This document shows, one piece after another, positions 112 through 11,656 of a DNA stretch of 64,000 nt; within the stretch, counting starts at the first letter, position 1, and each line of letters starts with the position of its first letter. The notes under the pieces were generated by a model. The model saw nothing but the letters and a program-made list of their open reading frames with translations. It ran no database searches and was not told where the DNA came from. The stretch comes from a virus (taxonomy: Duplodnaviria; Caudoviricetes): IMG/VR virus record IMGVR_UViG_3300037601_000088, positions 1-64,000 of that record. One strand, 5' to 3'. The translations under genes were made by a program, and so were the position numbers.

Positions 112-633
112 GTGAATATTTTTTGTACGGATGAATGTCCTATTCAATCAGCATATGATCTTGATGACAAACGAGTTATTAAGATGATTGTAGAAACAGG
201 ACAATTACTTTCTACTTCTGTTTCTTTCTTTATATCAAATGAATTATATGAAGAAAAAAAAGATCTTCTTTATAAATCATGTTTTATAAATCATCCGTGC
301 AATATTTGGGCCAGAGAAAGTTATTCTAATTTTCTCTGGCTTTATATTCATGGTTTAACTTTACTTCAGATTTACGAAAAAACGTATAATAAAAAACATA
401 AATCTGGAAAACTTTATGAAGCTATAAGCTCTCTTATAGAAAAAAATCAAAAAATTACAGAATATCCTATTTCTTTTTGTGATTGTACGGAGTATAAAGA
501 TAGGATTGACCTTTCTGTCCATGAAAGGTATCGAAAATTTATGATACTTAAATGGAGTGAAAGAGATAAAACGCCTCCTACATGGAAAAAGCGAAATAAG
601 CCTTTGTGGTACAAGGAGATGAATTATGATTGA
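112..633 (+). CDS. Pyrimidine-dimer DNA glycosylase / DenV-like protein
   Basis: MNIF..D.CP..SA..L.DK.V.KM..E..QLLST, NHPC..W.R.S..N..WL motifs of the Pyr_excise-like family; AAGGA SD. Confidence 0.75.
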   Translation: MNIFCTDECPIQSAYDLDDKRVIKMIVETGQLLSTSVSFFISNELYEEKKDLLYKSCFINHPCNIWARESYSNFLWLYIHGLTLLQIYEKTYNKKHKSGKLYEAISSLIEKNQKITEYPISFCDCTEYKDRIDLSVHERYRKFMILKWSERDKTPPTWKKRNKPLWYKEMNYD

Positions 634-825: not shown

Positions 826-1188
826 TTGTTAGATAAAATACAAGAAATGCATACTAAATTTCAGATAACTAATTCTGAAATTCCATTTACACAAGAAGAA
901 AAAGATTTCAGAATTCGAGCTATGCAAGAAGAGCTCGATGAATATGAAGAAGCATCAACTCTGGAGGATGAGCTTGATGCTCTTGTTGATCTTTGCGTAT
1001 TTGCCTTTGGCACAGCAGAGAGAATGAATTTACTTGGTGTTTTTGAAGAAGCTTATAATAGAGTTATGCAAGCAAATCTTCAAAAAGAGCTTGGTACTAA
1101 TGAAAAACGTGGATCATTTGAAATCGATTTGGTTAAGCCAGATGGTTGGCAATCACCTATTTTAACAGATTTAGTCGAAGGAATTTAA
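826..1188 (+). CDS. MazG-like/PRA-PH nucleoside triphosphate pyrophosphohydrolase
   Basis: EELDEY..A......DALVDL..FA.G and V..AN..K motifs, KP.GW..P tail. Confidence 0.8.
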   Translation: MLDKIQEMHTKFQITNSEIPFTQEEKDFRIRAMQEELDEYEEASTLEDELDALVDLCVFAFGTAERMNLLGVFEEAYNRVMQANLQKELGTNEKRGSFEIDLVKPDGWQSPILTDLVEGI

Positions 1189-1539
1189 ATGTCAAGCGTA
1201 GATAAAACATTAGAAGTGCGCGGTTCTAGATATGGAACATTTGAGAATAATGCCACAACAACACAATCTTTAATGGAAGTAATTGAAAAAGCTCCAAGTT
1301 TTGAGCAATTATCAAAACTTCATAAAGAAGCAATTCATATGATTTTTCATAAGATTGCAAGAATTGTTTGCGGAGATCCTAATTATATAGATAATGTTCA
1401 TGATATCGTAGGTTATGCAAAACTCTTAGAAGATTATCTGGTTAGCAATGAAAATAAAAATTCAGTTAAACCAGACCCTTCATCATACACTGATATAGTT
1501 TCTGGAAAAGGTACTTCAAAAACTTTATTAAAAGGATAA
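1189..1539 (+). CDS. DUF6378-like nucleotide-modification-associated protein
   Basis: L..RG.RYG.F, HKIARI..GD..Y.D...DI.GYA.L motif typical of small proteins in phage base-modification loci. Confidence 0.65.
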   Translation: MSSVDKTLEVRGSRYGTFENNATTTQSLMEVIEKAPSFEQLSKLHKEAIHMIFHKIARIVCGDPNYIDNVHDIVGYAKLLEDYLVSNENKNSVKPDPSSYTDIVSGKGTSKTLLKG

Positions 1540-1542
1540 ACA

Positions 1543-2253
1543 ATGTTTAGTGTTAATGATATTAGAAACAAATTTATTCAAAAATATTTAGAAAAAGATT
1601 TTGCCGAGAACGACACATTAGAACTACTTAATGTGTCGTTTTTAGCAGATGAAGATTCTATTTTCGGTTCTGTTAATAAAGATTATATAGATAGAGAATT
1701 AGCATGGTATATTTCTATGTCTAGAAATGTTAATGATATACCTGGAAATGTTCCTAAGATATGGCAAGATGTTTCAGACAGAAATGGTAAAATCAATTCA
1801 AATTATGGTTGGTGTATTTGGTCTGAAGAAAATGGAAGTCAGTATGATTTTTGTTTATCCTCTTTACTTAATGATAAATCAACACGTCAAGCTTGCATGA
1901 TTTATAACCGGCCTGAAATGCAAATCGATGCTTTTGATAATGGCATGAGAGATTTTATGTGTACCTATGCTGTACAGTGTTTTATAAGAAATGATAGGTT
2001 ATATTATCATGTATTAATGAGATCTAACGATTGTTGGGCAGGATATCGAAACGATTTAGCATGGCATAAACATGTTTATAATAATCTATTCGTTGATCTA
2101 AAAGAAAAATATGCAGAATTAAAAAGACAAGATATTTATTGGAATGCTATGTCGCTACATGTTTATCCTAGACAATATTGGATGGTAGATTGCTGGGCTA
2201 GATTTGGTAAATATATTCCTAAAAAAGAATACGATAAATTAATAGACAAATGA
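1543..2253 (+). CDS. gp42: dCMP hydroxymethylase (thymidylate synthase superfamily, T4 gp42-like)
   Basis: INSNYGW, STRQA.MIY.RP, DFMCT, MRSND...GYRND, SLHVY; Asp (RND) at the position where dUMP-specific TS has Asn, as in T4 gp42. Confidence 0.8.
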   Translation: MFSVNDIRNKFIQKYLEKDFAENDTLELLNVSFLADEDSIFGSVNKDYIDRELAWYISMSRNVNDIPGNVPKIWQDVSDRNGKINSNYGWCIWSEENGSQYDFCLSSLLNDKSTRQACMIYNRPEMQIDAFDNGMRDFMCTYAVQCFIRNDRLYYHVLMRSNDCWAGYRNDLAWHKHVYNNLFVDLKEKYAELKRQDIYWNAMSLHVYPRQYWMVDCWARFGKYIPKKEYDKLIDK

Positions 2254-2269
2254 CATAATTTTTGGTTTC

Positions 2270-2277
2270 TATAAATA
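2270..2277 (+). promoter_or_regulatory. T4-type late promoter TATAAATA upstream of GIY-YIG gene
   Basis: Exact TATAAATA 22 nt before ATG 2299, followed by AAGGAG SD. Confidence 0.6.
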
Positions 2278-2298
2278 TCCCATGAAGGAGTAATTTGA

Positions 2299-2934
2299 AT
2301 GGGATATGTTTATTTGATAAAAAATAAAATAAATGGAAACTGGTATATCGGATCCCATGATGGTTCTAAAGATAATTATATGGGATCCGGTATAGTATTA
2401 AATAAAGCATATGAAAAACACGGAATTGAAAATTTTACTAAAGAGATACTTTATGAAGGTGAATTTTATAGAGAAGAGGAAGAACTTTTATTAAAAACGT
2501 ATGATGCTGCAAATGACTCTAAATCTTATAACTTAAAAAATGAATCTATGGGAGGTTCCTTTCCTGGCGAATTAAATGGAATGTATAAAAAAATACATTC
2601 TAAAGAAGCACGATATAAATGTGGTAATGCATTTAGGGGTAAAAAAAGACAGGATCATTCTGAAAAAATGAAAGGTGAAAACAATCCGATGTATGGTAAA
2701 AGTTATCATACATACGGTATTGTTAAAAAAGCTAAAGAAAATAAAGGAAAAACTTTTGAAGAAATCCATGGAGAAGAAAAAGGAAAAAACTTAAAGAAAA
2801 AACTTTCTTTATCACAAAAAGGCAAAAAACACAATCTTAAAGGGGTACAATGCCCACATTGTAGTTTAGAAGGTTCTGGGCCTAATATGACTAGATACCA
2901 TTTTGATAAATGCAAAAAAAAGGATAAAAAATAG
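2299..2934 (+). mobile_element. Free-standing GIY-YIG homing endonuclease with NUMOD3-like repeats
   Basis: GYVYLIKNKINGNWYIG, YMGSG, YNL, GE.NPMYGK repeats, C-terminal CPHC...RYHFDKCK. Confidence 0.85.
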
Positions 2935-2937
2935 ATT

Positions 2938-3309
2938 ATGACTTACACGATTGAACAACAGCGTGAGAATCGCAAAAAATGGGTAGAAGCTCTTCGATCC
3001 GGTAAATATAAACAAGGTTTTTATGATTTGAGAGATGTTTATGACAATTTTTGTTGTCTGGGCATTCTTTGTGAAATTGCTGGTGAGGAAAAATATTTAG
3101 ATGAAGATAATAATTTTTGGATTTACGGCCCAAAGGAAGAAAATAATACGGCGGGTGCAACAGATTTTGCAAAAGATTTTGTTGGTTTGATTGATGGTTT
3201 AGGACATTTTGAAAGTGGTGTTTTGTCTTCAATGAATGATAATGGAGTTCCCTTTGATCAAATTGCTGATGTAATTGAATCAGAACCCGAGGGCCTTTTT
3301 CATGATTAA
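2938..3309 (+). CDS. Conserved phage hypothetical protein
   Basis: KWVEALRSGKYKQG, FCCLGILCE, ND.G.PF.QIAD.IE motifs recur in phage proteins of unknown function. Confidence 0.7.
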   Translation: MTYTIEQQRENRKKWVEALRSGKYKQGFYDLRDVYDNFCCLGILCEIAGEEKYLDEDNNFWIYGPKEENNTAGATDFAKDFVGLIDGLGHFESGVLSSMNDNGVPFDQIADVIESEPEGLFHD

Positions 3310-4291
3310 GCGAGTCGTATTAAATCCATTCACCCCAATTCCTAAATCAGAAAAATCTCATGTTCGCGGTTGGTCTATGATATGGGCTCAGCGCCTAAAT
3401 GCTGATATTGCAACTAAAGACACTGATTTGTCTGGCTATGATGAAATTTATATTGATCATGGTGTTAATTTTAATGGGGCATTAAATTTATTTGGTGGAT
3501 TTAATGACGAAGTTATTGATAGATGCAATATTTTGATTGAAAGGATTCTGAACGGAGCTAAACTTTATTCTTTAGACTGGAAAATGTCTGATATTGATTA
3601 TCCGACACAAATTTCAAAAAGAATCGGAAAAAAGAGCTCGTCAGATAGGCTTACAAGCGGTTTCTTAGATGTTATGACTGATACCTTAGGGAAGGCTAAA
3701 TTTCATTCTATGGCTAACCTGAACCTATCCAGTGCAATTTTAGGTGATTCACACTCTCCTGCATATAGTTTACCTAATATGGAAGTTTATAGAACTAATG
3801 GTAAGCTGCTTTATAGTTTTTTGAATGGTAAAACAAATTTATTATCTGGTAATATTGAATTTAAGAAAGACAAGCCTAAATGGGAAGAAATTTATATTTG
3901 TCTTGGTTCAATTGATATTCGCTTCCATGTTTATAGACATAAAACGGATCCCTTAGATTTAGCAGACAAATATCTTCAAAAAATAGATATGATTAAAAAG
4001 TTATTGGGGGTAGCAGATATTATTCCATGTGCTCCTGTTCCAATTGAATGGGAAGGTAGAAAAATTCCTGGAACTGGAATGTATAAAGGTAAACCGTTTT
4101 ATGGATCATTAGAGTTTCGCCAGGGTTTCACAAATGATTTTATTTCTTATTTAGAACGCTACATTGATGTGTTGTCTCCCCCCGAAGAATGGTATAATAT
4201 GGGCAATGAAAAATATGCAAAAGAAATTATGGAAATGGGATCTTCTGTTCATATAGCACCAAAAAATTATAATTCAATTATTGGATGGTAA
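3302..4291 (+). CDS. Putative DNA-modification enzyme: beta-glucosyltransferase-like N-domain plus SGNH-like C-domain
   Basis: Likely start ATG 3302 (overlaps upstream stop). N-domain DLSGYDEIYI...LNLFGG...KLYSLD recalls T4 BGT; C-domain GDSH...G.IDIR.H...SSVH is SGNH-like. Confidence 0.5.
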   Translation: MIKRVVLNPFTPIPKSEKSHVRGWSMIWAQRLNADIATKDTDLSGYDEIYIDHGVNFNGALNLFGGFNDEVIDRCNILIERILNGAKLYSLDWKMSDIDYPTQISKRIGKKSSSDRLTSGFLDVMTDTLGKAKFHSMANLNLSSAILGDSHSPAYSLPNMEVYRTNGKLLYSFLNGKTNLLSGNIEFKKDKPKWEEIYICLGSIDIRFHVYRHKTDPLDLADKYLQKIDMIKKLLGVADIIPCAPVPIEWEGRKIPGTGMYKGKPFYGSLEFRQGFTNDFISYLERYIDVLSPPEEWYNMGNEKYAKEIMEMGSSVHIAPKNYNSIIGW

Positions 4292-4292
4292 A

Positions 4293-4448
4293 ATGTATAC
4301 TCAAACAATAGAAAACATAGCCATTAAAATGGCCGAAAATAAAAACGGTGGTAAATGGCCAACACATTATACTGAACAACAAAAAGATTTTTGGCGAAAT
4401 AAAGCAAAAGAAATCTTCGAGATAGTAAAGGAAGCTTTAGTAGCTTAA
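4293..4448 (+). CDS. Small hypothetical protein (51 aa, not in ORF track)
   Basis: MYTQTIENIAIKMAENKNGGKWPTHYTEQQKDFWRNKAKEIFEIVKEALVA fills the gap between flanking genes. Confidence 0.6.
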   Translation: MYTQTIENIAIKMAENKNGGKWPTHYTEQQKDFWRNKAKEIFEIVKEALVA

Positions 4449-4454
4449 AATAAT

Positions 4455-5408
4455 ATGTTTGAAATCACAGAATCAACAAAAAATAAAGATGTTCCTGATA
4501 AAATTTCTTTTACTGAAAGAACAAATTATCTCCGGGCTTATTATCGAAATTTTAAATCGAAGTTGCCAGATCCTTTAGTATATCCTTCAAAGGAAAGAAG
4601 CGATATTTTTATTCTTGATTTTGCTCAAGGTCCTGCTGGTTTAAAAGCTTATGCCGCCGAAAAATTTATTGCAGAACAATATAAAACTATGGGATATGCT
4701 GCAGTTCGTGTTGGCCATGCGCCTGAAGCAATTGCTTTTCTTTGTGAAATGTATAATAAAAATGTTGTTTTCTTTGGAGCTGCCTCGAAACAAATCACAC
4801 CTCACCAGGCTGTCGTTTTAGCTTATAAAAATACAAATCTTCGATTTGCTAAAATTCCAGCAATGCCTACGATGAATACATGGATAAAAAATTGGGCTCA
4901 GAAATATGATGCTGTTCCTCTACCTATGGGTTTGGCTAATACTTGGCAAGTAACAGCTGGGATTGTTAATATTGCTGAAACATATACACAAAAATATGGT
5001 GAGCCCACTCAATTTTATTGTGCTGTGTCTACCGGAACAATGATCAGAGGTCTTCAATTAGGTTGGCCTAATGCTGAAGCACGCGGTGTTGCAGTTGCCC
5101 GCAATATTAAAGATGGTGAAAAAGGATCAGCTGAAGTTATTTCCTATCACAAAAAATTCTATGCTGAATCTGATTATATGCCAAATTTCAATACAACATC
5201 AACATATGATGCTAAGGCCTATAAACATTTTATTGATACAGCAAAACCTGGAGCTGTTTTTATTAATGTCGGTTCAGATGCTCAAATTGAAAAAAGGTTA
5301 AATAAAATTCCCGGTTGGGAAAATATTAATGCTAAAAGAGAATGGGGTGATAAATCTGCATTTGACATTGGATATGTCCCTAATAACGAAGAGGTACTTT
5401 TCTTTTAA
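4455..5408 (+). CDS. PLP-dependent enzyme (fold type II, ACC deaminase / Trp synthase beta-like)
   Basis: AGLKAY candidate PLP-Lys, AVSTGTMIRGL glycine-rich phosphate loop, TYDAKAY, FINVG. Confidence 0.7.
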   Translation: MFEITESTKNKDVPDKISFTERTNYLRAYYRNFKSKLPDPLVYPSKERSDIFILDFAQGPAGLKAYAAEKFIAEQYKTMGYAAVRVGHAPEAIAFLCEMYNKNVVFFGAASKQITPHQAVVLAYKNTNLRFAKIPAMPTMNTWIKNWAQKYDAVPLPMGLANTWQVTAGIVNIAETYTQKYGEPTQFYCAVSTGTMIRGLQLGWPNAEARGVAVARNIKDGEKGSAEVISYHKKFYAESDYMPNFNTTSTYDAKAYKHFIDTAKPGAVFINVGSDAQIEKRLNKIPGWENINAKREWGDKSAFDIGYVPNNEEVLFF

Positions 5409-5965
5409 TGCATGAAGGAATAAAATTCAATACTAGTACAAGACAAAAAAATGATTATTATGCTACTCACCCGAGTGCTTTTGATATTTTAATTAAGAAT
5501 CATCTTTTGAGCGATAATATATGGGAACCGGCATGTGGTGGTAAATTTCTTTCAAACAGAATGAAAGAGTATGGTTATAATGTTAGAGAAAGTGATATTA
5601 TAGATTATGGAGGGAACGAAGTATTAGATTTTCTTTCCTCTAACGAAACATTTAAAGGAGACATAGTAACAAATCCTCCTTATAAACATGCTTTAGAATT
5701 TGTTCAAAAATCATTGGATACTGTCGAGGAAGGTTATGATGTATGTATGTTTTTGAAAATTCATTTTCTCGAAAGTAAAAAAAGATACAAATTTCTTAAA
5801 GAAACTCCTCCGGCTAAAATATTAACATGTTCAAATAGAGTTATTTGTGCTAAGAATGGTGAATTTGATAAAGTATCTGGTTCTATGACTTTTTATGCAT
5901 GGTTCATATGGACAAAGGGTTTTAAATATAAAACAACATTGGAAGTGGTGAATGGTGATGATTAA
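5408..5965 (+). CDS. DNA N6-adenine methyltransferase
   Basis: DYYATH, WEPACGG motif I, DIVTNPPY motif IV, YAWFIW. Confidence 0.85.
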   Translation: MHEGIKFNTSTRQKNDYYATHPSAFDILIKNHLLSDNIWEPACGGKFLSNRMKEYGYNVRESDIIDYGGNEVLDFLSSNETFKGDIVTNPPYKHALEFVQKSLDTVEEGYDVCMFLKIHFLESKKRYKFLKETPPAKILTCSNRVICAKNGEFDKVSGSMTFYAWFIWTKGFKYKTTLEVVNGDD

Positions 5966-7094
5966 TTATACGAAATATTATGAAGAATTTCTTCGCTATC
6001 ATGAAATGGCAAAATGGCAACAGGCTAATTGCAATTTAGGAACTGTTCCATATACAGATACACCATACAATGATGATTTAATCAAAAACGTTTATCTATA
6101 TGATGTTGTTAAACGAAAGTATGCTGGTTTCACTCAAATTCTTCATGATTTATGGTTTACTGAACAAAATCATACTTACAAAGAAAAGCTTACTCCTTTC
6201 AGAAAAGAATTAACAAATTCAATCGATTCGTCTGATTGGGATTTCAAGGATTGGCTGTTTGTTTTCTTTGTCCACCGTTTGACTGGTTCTGCAATTAATT
6301 ATGCGCAAACACCATCAGGTTATTATAATTCAATTCTTCTTCATTTTCAGGGATGTAAAAATCGCTATGATATGATTGAAGTTATAAAATCATATGATGG
6401 TCCTATGTATACTTCAATAGGCTATCAAATCGCAGGCTTTCCAAAAGCGCCTGAAGGCTGGAAAAGAGCCGGTGATTATTTTATTACAACTCATTTACCA
6501 TTATTAATTCATGATTTTGCTGAGTTTGTTGAAACTCAACCCAAAGAATTTCGACCCCTTATGGAATGGTTGGAAAATTATCATAAAGAAAGAGGCTGGA
6601 GAGTATTTCGTTTTCAATATGCGGCAGTTCTTGCAGATATTGCTGACTTTTTCCCGGAAAAAATGATTATTGATTCTCATTTCTTCTATGGATCAAATGC
6701 AATTGAATGCTTATCATATATGGCAGAAAAGCCATCCGGTGTTTCAAAATTAAAACACCTCGATAATATTATGGAGCAAATATGGCTTGATACAAATTCA
6801 AGACCTTATAATGCTGAGGATATTGCGTGTGATTGCATTCGCTGGATCGAAAATTATATAAATCCTAAACAAGACTATTCACATTTAGATTTAGATGAAG
6901 TATGGTCAAGTCATAAAATTAAAGATCATCCATATGGTAGACAAAAGCCTATGTTAGAATTAGGGTTGATTAATACTTTTAATGGGATGAAAGGTCATCC
7001 CTCTGACGATAAAATTTTAAAGGAAGCAAATGTATCGGTTCAAGAATATAGAGAAAAAGTTAGAGAATTGGAAAATAGTGTTTCTTGGCTTTAA
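5952..7094 (+). CDS. Amino acid:DNA transferase-like protein (aGPT-PPlase-like, HhH-glycosylase fold), divergent
   Basis: DDLIKNVYLYDVVKRKY, GSNAIECL and AEDIACDCIRW resemble the D.IL..Y.F.NV.R, GPGA..GL and E..LCE..KY blocks of aGPT-PPlases; context in modification cluster; start may be 5958. Confidence 0.5.
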   Translation: MVMINYTKYYEEFLRYHEMAKWQQANCNLGTVPYTDTPYNDDLIKNVYLYDVVKRKYAGFTQILHDLWFTEQNHTYKEKLTPFRKELTNSIDSSDWDFKDWLFVFFVHRLTGSAINYAQTPSGYYNSILLHFQGCKNRYDMIEVIKSYDGPMYTSIGYQIAGFPKAPEGWKRAGDYFITTHLPLLIHDFAEFVETQPKEFRPLMEWLENYHKERGWRVFRFQYAAVLADIADFFPEKMIIDSHFFYGSNAIECLSYMAEKPSGVSKLKHLDNIMEQIWLDTNSRPYNAEDIACDCIRWIENYINPKQDYSHLDLDEVWSSHKIKDHPYGRQKPMLELGLINTFNGMKGHPSDDKILKEANVSVQEYREKVRELENSVSWL

Positions 7095-7209
7095 GGGTGA
7101 ATTATTTTATTGGGGTGATTTAAGGATTAATAATGGGGATCCTTATTTTGAATATAGATTTGGTCCAGTAAGTTTTAGAAGATTTTTAAGAAAGAAAATG
7201 TTTCGATGA
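7030..7209 (+). CDS. Possible small hypothetical protein (59 aa)
   Basis: ATG 7030 with AAGGA SD, open to TGA overlapping ATG 7206; overlaps 3' end of upstream gene. Confidence 0.3.
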   Translation: MYRFKNIEKKLENWKIVFLGFKGELFYWGDLRINNGDPYFEYRFGPVSFRRFLRKKMFR

Positions 7210-7682
7210 GACTTGAGAAAGACGATTATTTCTTACATATTGCAAAACTTGTTTCAATGAGAGCAACATGTGTTCGTAGGCAAGTAGGTTGCGTCATTGT
7301 TGATGAACATAATCATATATTAGCCACAGGTTATAACGGTGTACCAATGAACTATAGGCATTGCACAGACGTTAAATGTGCTGGTGCTGATATGCCATCA
7401 GGAACCGGTTTAAATGCTTGTATGGCCACCCATGCGGAACAGAATGCTCTTTTACAATGTAAAAACATATTTGAAATCAATACAATTTATTGTACAACTT
7501 CTCCATGCCCAACATGTGCTAAATTAATAGCAAATACTTCATGCAAGAGAGTGGTTTATTCTGAAATGTATAGTGATACATCAAACCTAAAATTGTTTGA
7601 TGAACTAGGCATTAAACATGAATATATTAAAACCAGTCTTAAAGTAACTTTGCTGCCAAATTTTGATTATGGGCGTTACTAA
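7206..7682 (+). CDS. cd: dCMP deaminase
   Basis: RATCVRRQVG, TGYNG, HAEQNA, PCPTCAK zinc motifs. Confidence 0.92.
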   Translation: MRLEKDDYFLHIAKLVSMRATCVRRQVGCVIVDEHNHILATGYNGVPMNYRHCTDVKCAGADMPSGTGLNACMATHAEQNALLQCKNIFEINTIYCTTSPCPTCAKLIANTSCKRVVYSEMYSDTSNLKLFDELGIKHEYIKTSLKVTLLPNFDYGRY

Positions 7683-7694
7683 AAAAGGATTAAT

Positions 7695-8144
7695 ATGAAA
7701 TTCGCATTATTTGATTTAGATGGTACTTTAAATGAAGGACCATCTCCTAAAGCTCTTTCTTTCGTTGAAAGGCACCCAAAAAACTGGAAAGCTTTTTTTG
7801 AAGAATTAGAAACAGCTAAAGTAAAAAAACACATCGAAAGAAAATATCATTCTTATGAACATAAAAAGATGATTATGACAGCTCGAGGAACTGCTTTTAA
7901 GGCAACTACGTTATATTGGCTTTATAAACATGGATTTAAAGATTTTTTTGAACTTAGAATGAGGCCCATTGACGATAAAAGGCCGTCTCCCATTTGTAAA
8001 AGAGATATGATGAAACAGGTTATTAGAGATCATGGTATGCCCGAAATTGTTTATGAGGATAGAGAAGATGTAGTAGAAGTTTTTAAAGAGTTAAAAATTC
8101 CTAAGATTATTTTAGTCCCAACAAAAAATAAGGATACAACATAA
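7695..8144 (+). CDS. HAD-family phosphatase (polynucleotide kinase 3'-phosphatase-like)
   Basis: FDLDGTL, TAR, L.MRP..D.RP....K, YEDR. Confidence 0.8.
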   Translation: MKFALFDLDGTLNEGPSPKALSFVERHPKNWKAFFEELETAKVKKHIERKYHSYEHKKMIMTARGTAFKATTLYWLYKHGFKDFFELRMRPIDDKRPSPICKRDMMKQVIRDHGMPEIVYEDREDVVEVFKELKIPKIILVPTKNKDTT

Positions 8145-10336: not shown

Positions 10337-11656
10337 TTAGACGAGATTTGCAATAGCCATTTTTCTGTAGTAAACGTTTGAGTTGGCTTCAAGAGAACCA
10401 TCAGATGCAGTAGCACCTTTAGAGAATGGATTCGCAACCATGCCGTATCTAGTTTTGAAACCGATAACTGGTTGTAGTGAATTCTCACCAACTGCTCTAA
10501 CCATCTGAAGCGGAGTATATGGGCAATAGAATAAGCCAGCATCCCAGCTATTTGAACCCTTATAACCGATAACAGCAAAGTCAATTGCAGCATATGGGTC
10601 GATATAAACTTTAACGTTTCCGTTAATTGTACCAGCGTAAGTAACACCTGTATCATCAACCGTTAAGTTAGCAGAAGCTTCAACATACTTAAGAACACCC
10701 GCCATCTGAAGAGCAGCAGCAACATCAGAAGAAGTAATAAGAATGTTTCCTCTACCTCTACGTGTTTCTTTTGCGACAGCATTACATTCGCGAGCTATCT
10801 GATAATGAAGGCCTGCAAATCTTTCACCCATCCAACGACCGTTAGAGTCAGTATCAAGATCGAAAGTACCAGCAGTTGTTAAACCAGACGACTGAGCACC
10901 AACTTTAGCTGTAACGAAAACTGTACGAACAGCTTCGCGGTTGATTTCAGCAATTAGCTCAGTTGAAAGAACACCGGATAGTTCCTGCTCTGCCTCTAAA
11001 CCATGGATGGCTTTAAGATCCTGAGCAAGTTCGTGTGAGTATTCAGCTTTTAGACCACGGCCTTTTGCATCAACGGTAACTTTCTCAATTGAGATGCCCA
11101 TTTCAGCGAAAGCAGTATTACCAGAAGCACCAAGCGCTTCAAGCTGTGCAGTAGTCATACCACCTGAGAAGTTATAAACTTCAGTGTTAGGGCTGACCGC
11201 ATTAGTACCGAGGTTTAATGTCGCATCACCAACGATTTCGTTATTACCACTAGTAACTGATGCGTGACCAGTATTTGCTTCATTATAGAAAGCTTCAGTA
11301 CCTGTCTGATTAGCATATCTAGAACGAAGCGCGAAGATAGTACCATTTGGACCGGTCATAGGCTGCATACCCATGATTTCAAATGAAACTAGATTAGGAG
11401 CAGTTCTACGAATCATGTTGATAAGAACAGGATCGTAATTCTGAACTCCACCGGTTTGGTTGGTAGGTCCGTCCTCAACGATTAGCTGAGAAGCGTAGCT
11501 TTTTTCGATTTGCCCATGTTGTAGGGCTAAATCAGTATTTTCAAGTAGCTGTGAAGTAACAGCTAGCTTTTCGCCAGATAATTTGCTAGTACCAGCAAAC
11601 TTGATTTCATCATTGATATATGGCTCCCACTTTTCAATTAGTTCTTTTTTAACCAT
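10337..11656 (-). CDS. gp23: Major capsid protein
   Basis: DPVLINMIRR..PNL, QPMTGP.G.IFALRSRY, LKAEYS.ELAQDLKAIHGL, DAGLFYCPYTPL, GFKTRYG. Confidence 0.98.
   Translation of the reverse strand: MVKKELIEKWEPYINDEIKFAGTSKLSGEKLAVTSQLLENTDLALQHGQIEKSYASQLIVEDGPTNQTGGVQNYDPVLINMIRRTAPNLVSFEIMGMQPMTGPNGTIFALRSRYANQTGTEAFYNEANTGHASVTSGNNEIVGDATLNLGTNAVSPNTEVYNFSGGMTTAQLEALGASGNTAFAEMGISIEKVTVDAKGRGLKAEYSHELAQDLKAIHGLEAEQELSGVLSTELIAEINREAVRTVFVTAKVGAQSSGLTTAGTFDLDTDSNGRWMGERFAGLHYQIARECNAVAKETRRGRGNILITSSDVAAALQMAGVLKYVEASANLTVDDTGVTYAGTINGNVKVYIDPYAAIDFAVIGYKGSNSWDAGLFYCPYTPLQMVRAVGENSLQPVIGFKTRYGMVANPFSKGATASDGSLEANSNVYYRKMAIANLV

What the first reader, a model, noticed from the sequence alone, without database searches (positions are those of the whole stretch)
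826..8144. Candidate undescribed hydroxymethylcytosine hypermodification pathway
Seen: one co-oriented cluster encodes a MazG-like NTP pyrophosphatase, a DUF6378-like protein, a gp42-like hydroxymethylase with the dCMP-type Asp (GYRND), a BGT-N/SGNH-like protein, a fold-II PLP enzyme, an aGPT-PPlase-like protein, dCMP deaminase and a HAD phosphatase. Established: amino acid:DNA transferases with PLP enzymes hypermodify 5-hydroxymethyluracil in phages such as ViI and M6, whereas T4 gp42 makes hmC that is glucosylated. Inference: here amino-acid/amine transfer chemistry may be applied to hmC, giving a non-sugar cytosine modification. The hydroxymethyl-pyrimidine DNA kinase expected for such chemistry is not visible in this window.
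Basis: partly seen in the sequence, partly recalled or inferred. Interest (0 to 1): 0.8.

Follow-up and report, generated by a model that had tools for sequence, protein, structure and literature searches.

The report
Kinase-less hydroxymethylcytosine DNA hypermodification cassette
An uncultured T4-like phage makes 5-hydroxymethylcytosine as T4 does, but beside that gene it carries relatives of the enzymes that attach amino acids to thymine in other phages, with an esterase-type hybrid and no DNA kinase in the gene set, so its DNA probably carries a cytosine modification that has not been described.

Summary
ORF 1543-2253 is a clear T4 gp42 ortholog. It carries all four residues that mark a 5-hydroxymethyl-dCMP synthase, as opposed to a thymidylate synthase, a dUMP hydroxymethylase or the recently described 5-hydroxy-dCMP synthase.

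Three other genes form a conserved module with gp42:
- 3302-4291: a hybrid of an SGNH esterase fold with an N-terminal domain that may resemble the first half of T4 beta-glucosyltransferase.
- 4455-5408: a PLP enzyme in the same PHROG as the proven DNA-amino-acid decarboxylase M6 gp52.
- 5952-7094: a distant aGPT-Pplase/AADT-superfamily protein with the conserved Glu-x3-Cys motif.

Among 80 related IMG/VR loci, 70 have the SGNH gene, 67 the PLP gene and 65 a thymidylate-synthase homolog. Of those 65, 64 have the gp42-type signature. Seven protein clusters fuse the SGNH hybrid to the aGPT-Pplase-like domain.

No 5-hmU-type DNA kinase is found in the module or in the 147-kb record. The methyltransferase, the homing endonuclease and the HAD phosphatase are not part of the conserved module.

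The best reading is post-replicative, non-sugar hypermodification of 5hmC by a route with no dedicated DNA kinase. The product is unknown, and nothing has been shown chemically. Follow-up agents in this scan reached the same reading on at least eight other genomes. I found no paper describing it.

The parts
826..1188 (+). MazG/PRA-PH-type all-alpha NTP pyrophosphohydrolase. Its likely role is clearing dCTP, as T4 gp56 does (inferred).
   Evidence: PF01503 E=3.9e-5 and phrog_671 E=1e-16. A homolog lies within 10 kb of the module in 45 of 80 related loci.
1189..1539 (+). DUF6378-like small protein directly upstream of gp42. Function unknown.
   Evidence: PF19905 at 25.4 bits, just under the cut-off; phrog_16943 E=4e-22. 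It stands directly upstream of the TS homolog in 11 close loci, and in L014 the two read as one ORF.
1543..2253 (+). gp42-type dCMP hydroxymethylase (5hm-dCMP synthase), P0001
   Evidence: PDB 1b5e (T4 gp42) E=1.3e-64, against 3e-6 for thymidylate synthase. The signature D/C/D/D at E. coli ThyA positions 143/146/169/177 was read with the criteria of PMC13326640.
2299..2934 (+). GIY-YIG/NUMOD3 homing endonuclease. An insertion, not part of the pathway.
   Evidence: NUMOD3 E=1.7e-6 and phrog_314 E=1.5e-30. The nearest relatives have the TS and SGNH genes directly adjacent.
2938..3309 (+). Unknown 123-aa ORF (phrog_18067). Not conserved with the module.
   Evidence: No homolog in the 80 related loci.
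3302..4291 (+). Two-domain protein P0245: an N-terminal alpha/beta domain, possibly like the first half of T4 beta-glucosyltransferase, joined to a C-terminal SGNH-fold domain. Ser150 (in GDSH) and His317 are invariant. Proposed activating or tailoring enzyme.
   Evidence: AF2 pLDDT 88. SGNH Z=11.3-11.5 over residues 140-329. Invariant columns. Atlas neighbours of the N-terminal domain. Present in 70 of 80 related loci. Fused to the aGPT-Pplase-like domain in 7 clusters.
4455..5408 (+). Fold-type-II PLP enzyme P0003 of the M6 gp52 / ViI gp226 kind. Lys64 is the predicted Schiff-base lysine, and S192-T-G-T195 the phosphate loop.
   Evidence: phrog_7093 E=2e-35, a family that M6 gp52 itself hits at E=2e-159. 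hhalign of A3 against M6 gp52 gives E=1.9e-4 and aligns K64 with K36. PF00291 appears on homologs. Present in 67 of 80 loci.
5408..5965 (+). Small NPPY / EPACGG methyltransferase P0004, probably a DNA N6-adenine methyltransferase. An insertion specific to this genome.
   Evidence: phrog_799 E=4e-50; Dam PF05869 only weakly; motifs read. No homolog in the 80 related loci.
5952..7094 (+). aGPT-Pplase/AADT-superfamily protein P0005 (HhH-glycosylase-like helical fold) with the conserved Glu289-x3-Cys293 motif. Proposed C5-methylene group transferase acting on 5hmC in DNA.
   Evidence: AF2 pLDDT 92. Best PDB match 8z2n, Z=10.2 over 210 residues. BFVD top match named 'Amino acid:DNA transferase domain'. 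hhalign against the M6 gp55 family gives E=4.5e-4 over the full length. Motif conserved in 61-62 of 63 representatives. In the Atlas, 28 of 30 named neighbours carry PF18723.
7206..7682 (+). dCMP deaminase (T4 Cd-like). It supplies dUMP for the phage's own ThyA.
   Evidence: PF00383 E=6e-22. Present in 36 of 80 loci. A canonical ThyA lies at 73904-74752.
7695..8144 (+). HAD phosphatase of the polynucleotide kinase-phosphatase type. Probably the phosphatase half of a split PseT, not a pathway member.
   Evidence: PF25109 E=5e-13. It matches phrog_505 positions 163-285. The kinase half, at 118271-118768, matches phrog_505 positions 1-146. Two RNA ligases are present. No homolog in the 80 related loci.

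Best explanation
The phage replaces C by 5-hydroxymethyl-C before replication and then converts 5hmC in DNA into a non-sugar hypermodified base.

Before replication (inferred by analogy with T4):
- The gp42 ortholog makes 5hm-dCMP.
- The MazG-type pyrophosphatase probably removes dCTP.
- The dCMP deaminase and a separate ThyA keep dTTP canonical.

After replication (inferred), a conserved three-enzyme module acts on 5hmC in DNA:
- The aGPT-Pplase-superfamily protein (5952-7094) flips out the base. It uses its conserved Cys293/Glu289 pair to attack C6, generate a C5 exocyclic methylene and capture an amino acid or amine.
- The M6-gp52-like PLP enzyme (4455-5408) then processes the DNA-borne amino acid, most likely by decarboxylation.
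- The SGNH hybrid (3302-4291) works together with the transferase-like protein and may replace the kinase of the thymidine systems. It could activate the hydroxymethyl group as an ester, or add or remove an acyl group.

What is shown: the gene identities, the active-site signatures, the conserved linkage and the fusions. What is inferred: the substrate, the order of steps and the product.
For: 1. gp42 identity.
- PDB 1b5e E=1.3e-64.
- Signature D-C-D-D at ThyA positions 143/146/169/177. By the criteria of PMC13326640 this means 5hmC. A 5hoC enzyme would have Asn at position 169, and a dUMP enzyme Asn at 177.

2. aGPT-Pplase superfamily membership of P0005.
- Its best solved match is the 5-PmdU glycinyltransferase 8z2n: Z=10.2, rmsd 3.9, 210 residues aligned. 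HhH glycosylases follow.
- BFVD matches include 'Amino acid:DNA transferase' and 'aGPT-Pplase clade 1' proteins.
- The profile-profile match to the M6 gp55 family has E=4.5e-4 over 267 columns and aligns EDIAC with EHTLC.
- The E-x3-C motif is conserved in 62 (Glu) and 61 (Cys) of 63 family representatives. It is also present in PF18723, PF18724 and the X paralog. That Cys and Glu are essential in M6 gp51 and ViI gp247 (PMC8989533), and Cys247 is essential in PaMx11 gp46 (PMC11472151).

3. PLP enzyme.
- It falls in the same PHROG as M6 gp52.
- K64 aligns with K36 of M6 gp52.

4. Linkage across 80 IMG/VR loci that carry a P0005 homolog.
- SGNH gene in 70, PLP gene in 67, TS homolog in 65. All are adjacent and co-directional.
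- 64 of the 65 TS homologs carry D-C-D-D.
- The module is also found in a non-T4 PolA-type phage, L012, again with an Asp-type TS.

5. Fusions. Seven representative clusters of 639-790 aa join the SGNH hybrid to the aGPT-Pplase-like domain.

6. Absences.
- No T4 alpha- or beta-glucosyltransferase and no PF18748 kinase in the 147-kb record.
- No small P-loop kinase recurs in the related modules.
Against: - No chemical data exist.
- P0005 does not reach any Pfam aGPT-Pplase model.
- Its link to the proven transferase clade PF18724 rests on fold and motif only. hhalign gives no match.
- Its nearer clade, PF18723, has no demonstrated transferase activity. M6 gp55 was dispensable in vitro.
- The residue-level equivalence of Cys293 with Cys247 comes from a weak profile alignment, not from a structural superposition.
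- The record is only about 85% complete. It holds one AAA_33 kinase (118271-118768) that could phosphorylate 5hmC in DNA.
- No gp1-type dNMP kinase was found, so how 5hm-dCMP reaches the triphosphate is open.
- Two glycosyltransferase-like genes lie elsewhere in the genome, so glycosylated hmC is not excluded.
Confidence: 0.6

Rival explanations
1. The chemistry is the canonical kinase-dependent one. The stand-alone AAA_33 P-loop kinase at 118271-118768, or a kinase in the missing 15% of the genome, phosphorylates 5hmC in DNA. The aGPT-Pplase-like enzyme then displaces the phosphate. The SGNH hybrid is only a late tailoring enzyme that adds or removes an acyl group.
For: - An AAA_33 kinase exists (E=1.5e-19).
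- M6 gp54 itself hits AAA_33 weakly.
- The record is about 85% complete.
- P-loop kinases beside phage TET genes have been proposed to phosphorylate 5hmC (PMC8256090).
- PaMx11 uses an acetyltransferase as a late tailoring step.
Against: - PF18748 finds nothing in the genome even at E<=10.
- The AAA_33 kinase matches the kinase half of phrog_505, and the HAD at 7695-8144 matches its phosphatase half. Two RNA ligases are also present. Together these fit a split PseT RNA-repair set.
- No homolog of this kinase or of M6 gp54 lies within 10 kb of the module in any of the 80 loci.
- The SGNH hybrid, not a kinase, is the protein found fused to the aGPT-Pplase-like domain.
Confidence: 0.15
2. The module modifies thymine positions, not cytosine. 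5hm-dUMP would arise by deamination of 5hm-dCMP by the neighbouring dCMP deaminase. It would be partly incorporated, and the resulting 5hmU would be hypermodified as in M6 or ViI.
For: - All characterised relatives (M6 gp51/gp52, ViI gp247/gp226, PaMx11 gp46) act on 5hmU derivatives.
- A dCMP deaminase lies in the cluster and in 36 of 80 related loci.
Against: - The genome has a canonical ThyA (Leu143, Asp169, Asn177), so dTTP is made normally.
- No dUMP-type hydroxymethylase accompanies the module in any of 65 loci.
- T4 itself has gp42, Cd and Td together, so the deaminase is ordinary for a T4-like phage.
- No 5-hmU DNA kinase is present.
Confidence: 0.08
3. The phage DNA carries plain or glycosylated 5hmC, with the sugar added by the GT1 or GT2-like enzymes encoded elsewhere. 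The three-gene module then does something other than build a base adduct. For example, a glycosylase-fold protein might excise or sense bases in host or phage DNA, with esterase and PLP partners acting on a small molecule or on RNA.
For: - A GT1-family gene lies at 105087-106031 (PF00534 E=1e-13).
- A GT2-like gene lies at 83665-84507 beside gp45. Its homolog sits just downstream of the module in L003 and L011.
- The P0005 fold also matches 8-oxoguanine and 3-methyladenine glycosylases at Z=7-8.
- Clade 1 aGPT-Pplases have no proven activity.
Against: - The PLP partner belongs to the family whose only characterised members decarboxylate amino acids already attached to DNA.
- The conserved E-x3-C motif is that of the thiol-dependent transferases, not of HhH glycosylases.
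- The GT1 gene's relatives are in phages unrelated to this module.
- The module is strictly linked to gp42-type genes.
Confidence: 0.12

Closest known systems
Thymidine hypermodification pathways of phages M6, ViI, PaMx11, PhiW-14 and SP10: dUMP hydroxymethylase, 5-HMUDK kinase, AADT (aGPT-Pplase clade 2), an aGPT-Pplase clade 1 paralog, and a PLP decarboxylase (PMC8989533)
   Same: - A TS-family hydroxymethylase gene lies beside an aGPT-Pplase-superfamily protein with the Glu-x3-Cys motif.
- The PLP enzyme belongs to the M6 gp52 family (phrog_7093).
- Many relatives carry a second aGPT-Pplase-like paralog (X, in 35 of 80 loci), like the paralogous pairs of the thymidine systems.
   Different: - The hydroxymethylase here is dCMP-specific (Asp at ThyA position 177), so the precursor base is 5hmC, not 5hmU.
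- There is no PF18748 kinase in the module or the genome.
- An SGNH hybrid is the constant partner and the fusion partner. In the thymidine systems the partner is a P-loop kinase, and in SP10 gp186 it is fused.
- The transferase-like protein matches neither PF18724 nor PF18723 at the sequence level.
T4 hmC pathway: gp42, gp56 dCTPase, gp1 dNMP kinase, alpha- and beta-glucosyltransferases
   Same: - A gp42 ortholog (about 47-49% identity to Tequatrovirus gp42 by tblastn) with an identical active-site signature.
- dCMP deaminase and ThyA are present.
- The genome backbone is T4-like (gp23, gp45, gp44, UvsW and others).
   Different: - No alpha- or beta-glucosyltransferase.
- No gp1 homolog.
- A MazG-type enzyme stands where gp56 would act.
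- The tailoring genes beside gp42 are of the amino-acid-transfer kind, not sugar transferases.
RB69 / DLP3 arabinosyl-5-hydroxycytosine pathway (PMC13326640)
   Same: In a T4-like phage, a TS homolog with Asp at position 177 starts a cytosine hypermodification cluster.
   Different: - Those enzymes have Asn at ThyA position 169 and make 5-hydroxy-dCMP. Here position 169 is Asp, as in T4.
- Their tailoring enzymes are GT-B arabinosyltransferases and NDP-arabinose synthesis genes, none of which lie in this cluster.
Aeromonas T4-like phages 31 / 44RR2.8t, ORF233c (795 aa, hypothetical)
   Same: These are cultured phages that have gp42. They also have a homolog of the SGNH hybrid (26-29% identity over 96% of its length).
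   Different: - There the hybrid is fused to an unrelated or unrecognisable 430-aa C-terminal part.
- No homolog of the PLP enzyme or of P0005 was found in any cultured phage.

Membership tests
T4 gp42-type 5hm-dCMP synthase (TS superfamily) | Full-length homology to gp42, stronger than to thymidylate synthase | tested here: met
   1b5e E=1.3e-64 (221 bits), against 3.4e-6 (30 bits) for the best TS.
T4 gp42-type 5hm-dCMP synthase (TS superfamily) | Catalytic Cys (ThyA C146) and Asp at ThyA N177, which gives dCMP specificity | tested here: met
   'DFMCT' and 'GYRND' align with T4 'DFMCT' and 'GFRND'. Columns were extracted.
T4 gp42-type 5hm-dCMP synthase (TS superfamily) | Acidic residue at ThyA L143 (lets water in), and Asp kept at ThyA D169 (Asn there marks 5hoC synthases) | tested here: met
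   Asp at both positions. The criteria come from PMC13326640.
T4 gp42-type 5hm-dCMP synthase (TS superfamily) | Enzymatic formation of 5hm-dCMP from dCMP and methylene-THF | not testable with these tools
   Needs an assay.
AADT / aGPT-Pplase clade 2 (Pfam PF18724 ADDT) | Match to the family profile | tested here: not met
   - No hit for P0005 at E<=10.
- No hit in the genome.
- None of the 33 family members hits it.
- hhalign against a 25-sequence M6 gp51 family alignment gives E=0.1.
AADT / aGPT-Pplase clade 2 (Pfam PF18724 ADDT) | Two-helix-bundle, HhH-glycosylase-like fold of PaMx11 gp46 | tested here: met
   8z2n_B is the best PDB match: Z=10.2, rmsd 3.9, 210 residues aligned.
AADT / aGPT-Pplase clade 2 (Pfam PF18724 ADDT) | Catalytic Cys with a nearby Glu (M6 gp51 E243/C247) | tested here: inconclusive
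   E289-x3-C293 has the same spacing, lies at a similar distance from the C-terminal end and is 97-98% conserved. No residue-level structural superposition was possible.
AADT / aGPT-Pplase clade 2 (Pfam PF18724 ADDT) | Works downstream of a 5-hmU DNA kinase (PF18748) on a phosphorylated hydroxymethyl group | tested here: not met
   No PF18748 in the genome. No M6 gp54 homolog in the 80 related loci.
aGPT-Pplase clade 1 (Pfam PF18723 HMUDK_hel) | Match to the family profile | tested here: inconclusive
   - The Pfam model finds nothing.
- hhalign of 63 family representatives against a 17-sequence M6 gp55 alignment gives E=4.5e-4 (global mode, probability 14%, 267 columns) and E=6.7e-4 (local mode, probability 27%, 261 columns).
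- In the ESM Atlas, 28 of 30 named neighbours carry PF18723. That is a lead only.
M6 gp52 / ViI gp226 DNA-amino-acid PLP decarboxylases (phrog_7093; fold type II, PF00291) | Match to the family profile that contains the characterised enzyme | tested here: met
   P0003 hits phrog_7093 at E=2.1e-35, covering profile positions 30-278 of 279. M6 gp52 hits the same family at E=2e-159.
M6 gp52 / ViI gp226 DNA-amino-acid PLP decarboxylases (phrog_7093; fold type II, PF00291) | Schiff-base lysine and phosphate-binding loop | tested here: met
   The invariant K64 aligns with M6 gp52 K36, and the invariant S192-T-G-T195 with 'SSGT'. The K36 assignment in PMC8989533 is itself a prediction.
M6 gp52 / ViI gp226 DNA-amino-acid PLP decarboxylases (phrog_7093; fold type II, PF00291) | PF00291 match on the protein itself | tested here: not met
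   No Pfam hit at E<=10. About 20 homologs at 46-54% identity do carry PF00291.
SGNH/GDSL hydrolase superfamily | SGNH fold | tested here: met
   Residues 140-329: Z=11.3-11.5, and all 50 best chains are SGNH.
SGNH/GDSL hydrolase superfamily | Block I Gly-Asp-Ser nucleophile and block V Asp-x-x-His | tested here: inconclusive
   G148-D149-S150-H151 and H317 are invariant. The acid three residues before the His is Ser, not Asp, so at most a Ser-His pair is present.
T4 beta-glucosyltransferase (PF09198) | Match to the family profile, or a GT-B two-domain fold | tested here: not met
   No PF09198 match in the genome at E<=1. Only the N-terminal domain has structural neighbours in a cluster where 40% of members carry PF09198 (TM 0.65). 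The second domain is SGNH, not a nucleotide-sugar-binding domain.
5-hmU DNA kinase (PF18748 HMUDK_HMUD1) | Presence of a family member in the module or the genome | tested here: not met
   genome, E<=10; 80 loci. The record is about 85% complete.

The most novel reading that the evidence does not exclude
A route of DNA base hypermodification that needs no DNA kinase. In it, a hybrid of the DNA-binding half of a glucosyltransferase with an SGNH acyl-transfer domain activates 5hmC in DNA as an ester rather than a phosphate. A thiol-dependent aGPT-Pplase-superfamily enzyme then swaps that group for an amino acid, and a PLP enzyme decarboxylates it. The result would be the first non-sugar hypermodified cytosine built on the gp42 pathway, for example an aminoalkyl- or aminoethoxy-methylcytosine. 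It would be widespread in uncultured T4-like and other large phages.
Probability: 0.3. Interest if true: 0.9.

Novelty: new variant of a known kind. Interest (0 to 1): 0.78.

Why it matters
All known non-sugar pyrimidine hypermodifications in phage DNA are on thymine and start from a DNA kinase. All known tailoring of gp42-made hmC is glycosylation.

This cassette would join the two worlds. The module is common. At least 566 IMG/VR stretches encode a P0005 relative, and the family has 915 protein clusters at 90% identity and 175 at 50% identity. It occurs on more than one phage backbone.

If the prediction holds, it would:
- add a new modified base to DNA;
- supply enzymes that derivatise 5hmC in DNA without ATP, which is of interest for 5hmC mapping chemistry;
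- reveal a further way for phages to evade restriction and CRISPR.

It is directly testable, because 5hmC-DNA is easy to make.

Tried and rejected
- **Close DNA relatives.** megablast of the cluster against 50,697 phage records found none.
- **P0005 in cultured phages.** tblastn found no match. P0003 hits only three distant 'methylase'-annotated genes.
- **Pfam and NCBIfam.** Scans of the four unknown proteins gave nothing, even at E<=10.
- **PDB sequence searches.** Profile searches with A1, A2 and A3 and a single-sequence search with P0004 gave nothing.
- **Foldseek against the PDB.** Only weak rows for both models. VIA-align was needed.
- **hhalign with single sequences.** A1 against M6 gp51 or gp55 gave no match. 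The fam5 alignment against a PF18724-type alignment also gave no match.
- **Aeromonas phage 31 ORF233c.** I tested whether it is an SGNH-AADT fusion. Only its N-terminal 365 residues match; its C-terminal part is not detectably P0005-like.
- **Complex prediction.** Complex prediction on P0005 with P0245 gave no verdict.
- **Pfam scan of the fusion proteins.** Nothing informative.
- **T4 gp1 homolog.** Searched with phmmer --max and tblastn; none found.
- **HAD phosphatase and methyltransferase as pathway members.** Considered and set aside, because both are absent from all 80 related loci.
- **5hoC (RB69-type) reading of the TS homolog.** Considered and rejected, because position 169 is Asp.

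Full report
**Setting.** The window is the first 64 kb of a 147,252-bp IMG/VR virus record, estimated at about 85% complete. The phage is T4-like. A gp23 capsid gene lies at 10337-11656 with a T4 scaffold gene next to it. gp44, gp45, gp46, UvsW-type and RNA ligase genes lie elsewhere. G+C is about 31-33% across the cluster.

**Observation.** ORFs from 826 to 8144 are all on the + strand. They are separated by a few bases or overlap by 1-14 bases.

Profile searches confirm the following genes:
- MazG/PRA-PH (826-1188).
- A DUF6378-like protein (1189-1539).
- A TS-family enzyme (1543-2253).
- dCMP deaminase (7206-7682).
- A HAD phosphatase of the polynucleotide-kinase type (7695-8144).

- A GIY-YIG/NUMOD3 homing endonuclease (2299-2934).
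- An unknown ORF (2938-3309).
- A 185-aa methyltransferase with EPACGG and NPPY motifs (5408-5965; phrog_799 E=4e-50).

**The hydroxymethylase.** P0001 matches T4 gp42 (PDB 1b5e) at E=1.3e-64 over its full length. Its best thymidylate synthase match has E=3e-6.

A 2026 paper shows that some gp42-like enzymes (RB69, DLP3) make 5-hydroxy-dCMP instead. It gives diagnostic positions in E. coli ThyA numbering (PMC13326640):
- Position 177: Asp for dCMP, Asn for dUMP.
- Position 143: acidic for hydroxymethylation.
- Position 169: Asp in T4-type enzymes, Asn in 5hoC synthases.

P0001 has Asp, Cys146, Asp and Asp at positions 143, 146, 169 and 177. It is therefore a 5hm-dCMP synthase by every sequence criterion. 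A separate canonical ThyA (ALPPCH ... SADIALGVPFN) lies at 73904-74752, so thymine should be ordinary.

**The 380-aa protein (P0005).**
- It has no Pfam, NCBIfam or PHROG match.
- It has 915 metagenomic relatives at E<=0.001, none with a Pfam domain.
- An AlphaFold model built on 33 homologs is confident (pLDDT 92).
- Its best solved match is the PaMx11 gp46 5-phosphomethyl-dU glycinyltransferase (8z2n; Z=10.2, rmsd 3.9, 210 residues). HhH DNA glycosylases follow at Z 7-8.
- In BFVD the best matches are uncultured-phage proteins named 'Amino acid:DNA transferase domain-containing'. Next come aGPT-Pplase clade 1 and '5-hmdU DNA kinase helical domain' proteins.

Sequence-profile links are weak.
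- Nothing links it to PF18724.
- A 63-sequence family alignment matches a 17-sequence M6 gp55 (PF18723) alignment over nearly the full length at E=4.5e-4.
- As a yardstick, the two known clades match each other at only E=0.03 by the same method.
- ESM Atlas features point the same way: 28 of 30 named neighbours carry PF18723.

The family's most conserved stretch is E289-D-x-x-C293-D. Glu is present in 62 of 63 representatives and Cys in 61 of 63. The same Glu-x3-Cys motif is conserved at the equivalent C-terminal position in the M6 gp55 family, the M6 gp51 family and the X paralog. The profile alignment puts EDIAC on EHTLC. In M6 gp51, ViI gp247 and PaMx11 gp46 this Cys is the catalytic nucleophile that attacks C6, and in M6 gp51 and ViI gp247 the Glu was also shown essential (PMC8989533; PMC11472151).

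**The PLP enzyme (P0003).**
- It hits phrog_7093 at E=2e-35.
- M6 gp52, the characterised decarboxylase of DNA-borne C-alpha-glycinylthymine, hits the same family at E=2e-159.
- hhalign aligns the invariant K64 with K36 of gp52, and the invariant S-T-G-T loop with SSGT.
- Many homologs at about 50% identity carry PF00291.

**The 329-aa protein (P0245).** The called gene starts at 3302.
- The model (pLDDT 88) has an SGNH-fold domain at residues 140-329. Z is 11.3-11.5, and every one of the 50 best chains is SGNH.
- G-D-S150-H and H317 are invariant.
- The N-terminal 138 residues form a flavodoxin-like alpha/beta domain.
- Its Atlas structural neighbours include a viral cluster in which 40% of members carry the T4 beta-glucosyltransferase family. 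This is a lead, not a test; PF09198 itself finds nothing in the genome.

**Linkage.** I fetched 80 IMG/VR loci that encode P0005 relatives. I then searched them with profiles of each protein.

| Gene | Loci with it (of 80) |
|---|---|
| SGNH hybrid | 70 |
| PLP enzyme | 67 |
| TS homolog | 65 |
| Second aGPT-Pplase-like paralog (X) | 35 |

- These genes are always adjacent and co-directional. Most of the gaps are at contig ends.
- Of the 65 TS homologs, 64 have the D-C-D-D signature. One fragment lacks the first two positions, and one reads C-C-D-D.
- MazG accompanies the module in 45 loci, dCMP deaminase in 36 and DUF6378 in 11.
- Five items occur in none of the 80 loci: the methyltransferase, the HAD phosphatase, ORF 2938, the genome's AAA_33 kinase and M6 gp54.
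- The same set occurs in a PolA-type 182-kb phage, L012, again with an Asp-type TS.

An exhaustive profile search found seven representative clusters of 639-790 aa. In each, the SGNH hybrid is fused N-terminally to the aGPT-Pplase-like domain. Thymidine systems show the analogous fusion of that helical domain with the P-loop kinase, as in SP10 gp186 (row 12, structure row 5).

**Kinase question.**
- PF18748 finds nothing in the 147 kb at E<=10.
- The only small P-loop kinase is an AAA_33 protein at 118271-118768. It matches the kinase half of phrog_505 (T4 polynucleotide kinase).
- The HAD at 7695-8144 matches the phosphatase half of the same family.
- RnlA- and Rnl2-type ligases are present.
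- The simplest reading is a split PseT for RNA repair. A role in the modification pathway cannot be excluded.
- No gp1 dNMP kinase homolog was found.

**Caveats.**
- Two glycosyltransferase-like genes lie elsewhere: a GT1 at 105087-106031 and a GT2-like gene at 83665-84507 beside gp45. Sugar addition to some hmC is therefore not excluded.
- The product, the donor and the order of steps are all inferred.
- The complex prediction gave no verdict.

**Literature and the scan.**
- Full-text searches found no paper that describes aGPT-Pplase/AADT-type chemistry on gp42-made hmC.
- The nearest published idea is that P-loop kinases beside phage TET genes might phosphorylate 5hmC (PMC8256090).
- Follow-up agents in this scan described the same cassette on at least eight other genomes, with the same reading. 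I consulted those notes only after reaching mine.

**Verdict.** This is a new variant of the known pyrimidine hypermodification systems. It uses a different base and has no dedicated DNA kinase in the module. It also has a new SGNH-hybrid partner.

Noticed in passing
window 2299-3309: A GIY-YIG/NUMOD3 homing endonuclease and an unknown 123-aa ORF are inserted between gp42 and the SGNH-hybrid gene. In the nearest related loci those two genes are directly adjacent.
   Followed up: partly
window 5408-5965: A 185-aa NPPY/EPACGG methyltransferase (phrog_799) is wedged between the PLP gene and the aGPT-Pplase-like gene. Its start and stop overlap both neighbours. None of the 80 related loci has it. 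Its target (adenine in DNA, or the new adduct) is unknown.
   Followed up: partly
window 7695-8144 and G000:C1:118271-118768: T4 polynucleotide kinase-phosphatase appears to be split into two genes 110 kb apart, a HAD phosphatase half and an AAA_33 kinase half. RnlA-like (96681-97850) and Rnl2-like (71487-72596) ligases are present.
   Followed up: partly
G000:C1, whole record: No homolog of the T4 gp1 dNMP kinase was found in 147 kb, although the phage has gp42. How 5hm-dCMP is phosphorylated is open.
   Followed up: partly
G000:C1:83665-84507 and 105087-106031: There are two glycosyltransferase-like genes. The GT2-like one lies beside gp45, and its homolog lies just downstream of the module in L003 and L011. 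The GT1 has relatives in Sinorhizobium, Stenotrophomonas, Caulobacter and Pelagibacter phages.
   Followed up: partly
L014:6472-7413: The DUF6378-like domain and the gp42-like enzyme read as one ORF. This may be a natural fusion or an ORF-calling artefact.
   Followed up: no
L002 (Aeromonas phage 31) 6007-8394: ORF233c (795 aa) of cultured Aeromonas T4-like phages that have gp42. Its N-terminal 365 residues are homologous to the SGNH hybrid. Its C-terminal 430 residues match nothing that I could test.
   Followed up: partly
L012:9199-9987 and L003:9598-10014: In relatives, a DNA glycosylase gene lies directly upstream of the aGPT-Pplase-like gene: HhH-GPD in L012 (E=2.5e-10) and a weak UDG-like match in L003.
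   Followed up: no
L042, L043, L063, L065, L066, L073: These loci carry only the aGPT-Pplase-like gene and its X paralog. No TS, PLP or SGNH gene lies within the flanks held (up to 10 kb each side), and the phage background is different.
   Followed up: partly
window 112-633: A T4 endonuclease V (DenV)-like pyrimidine-dimer glycosylase gene lies just upstream of the cluster. PF03013 scores just under its cut-off; phrog_624 E=5e-45.
   Followed up: no
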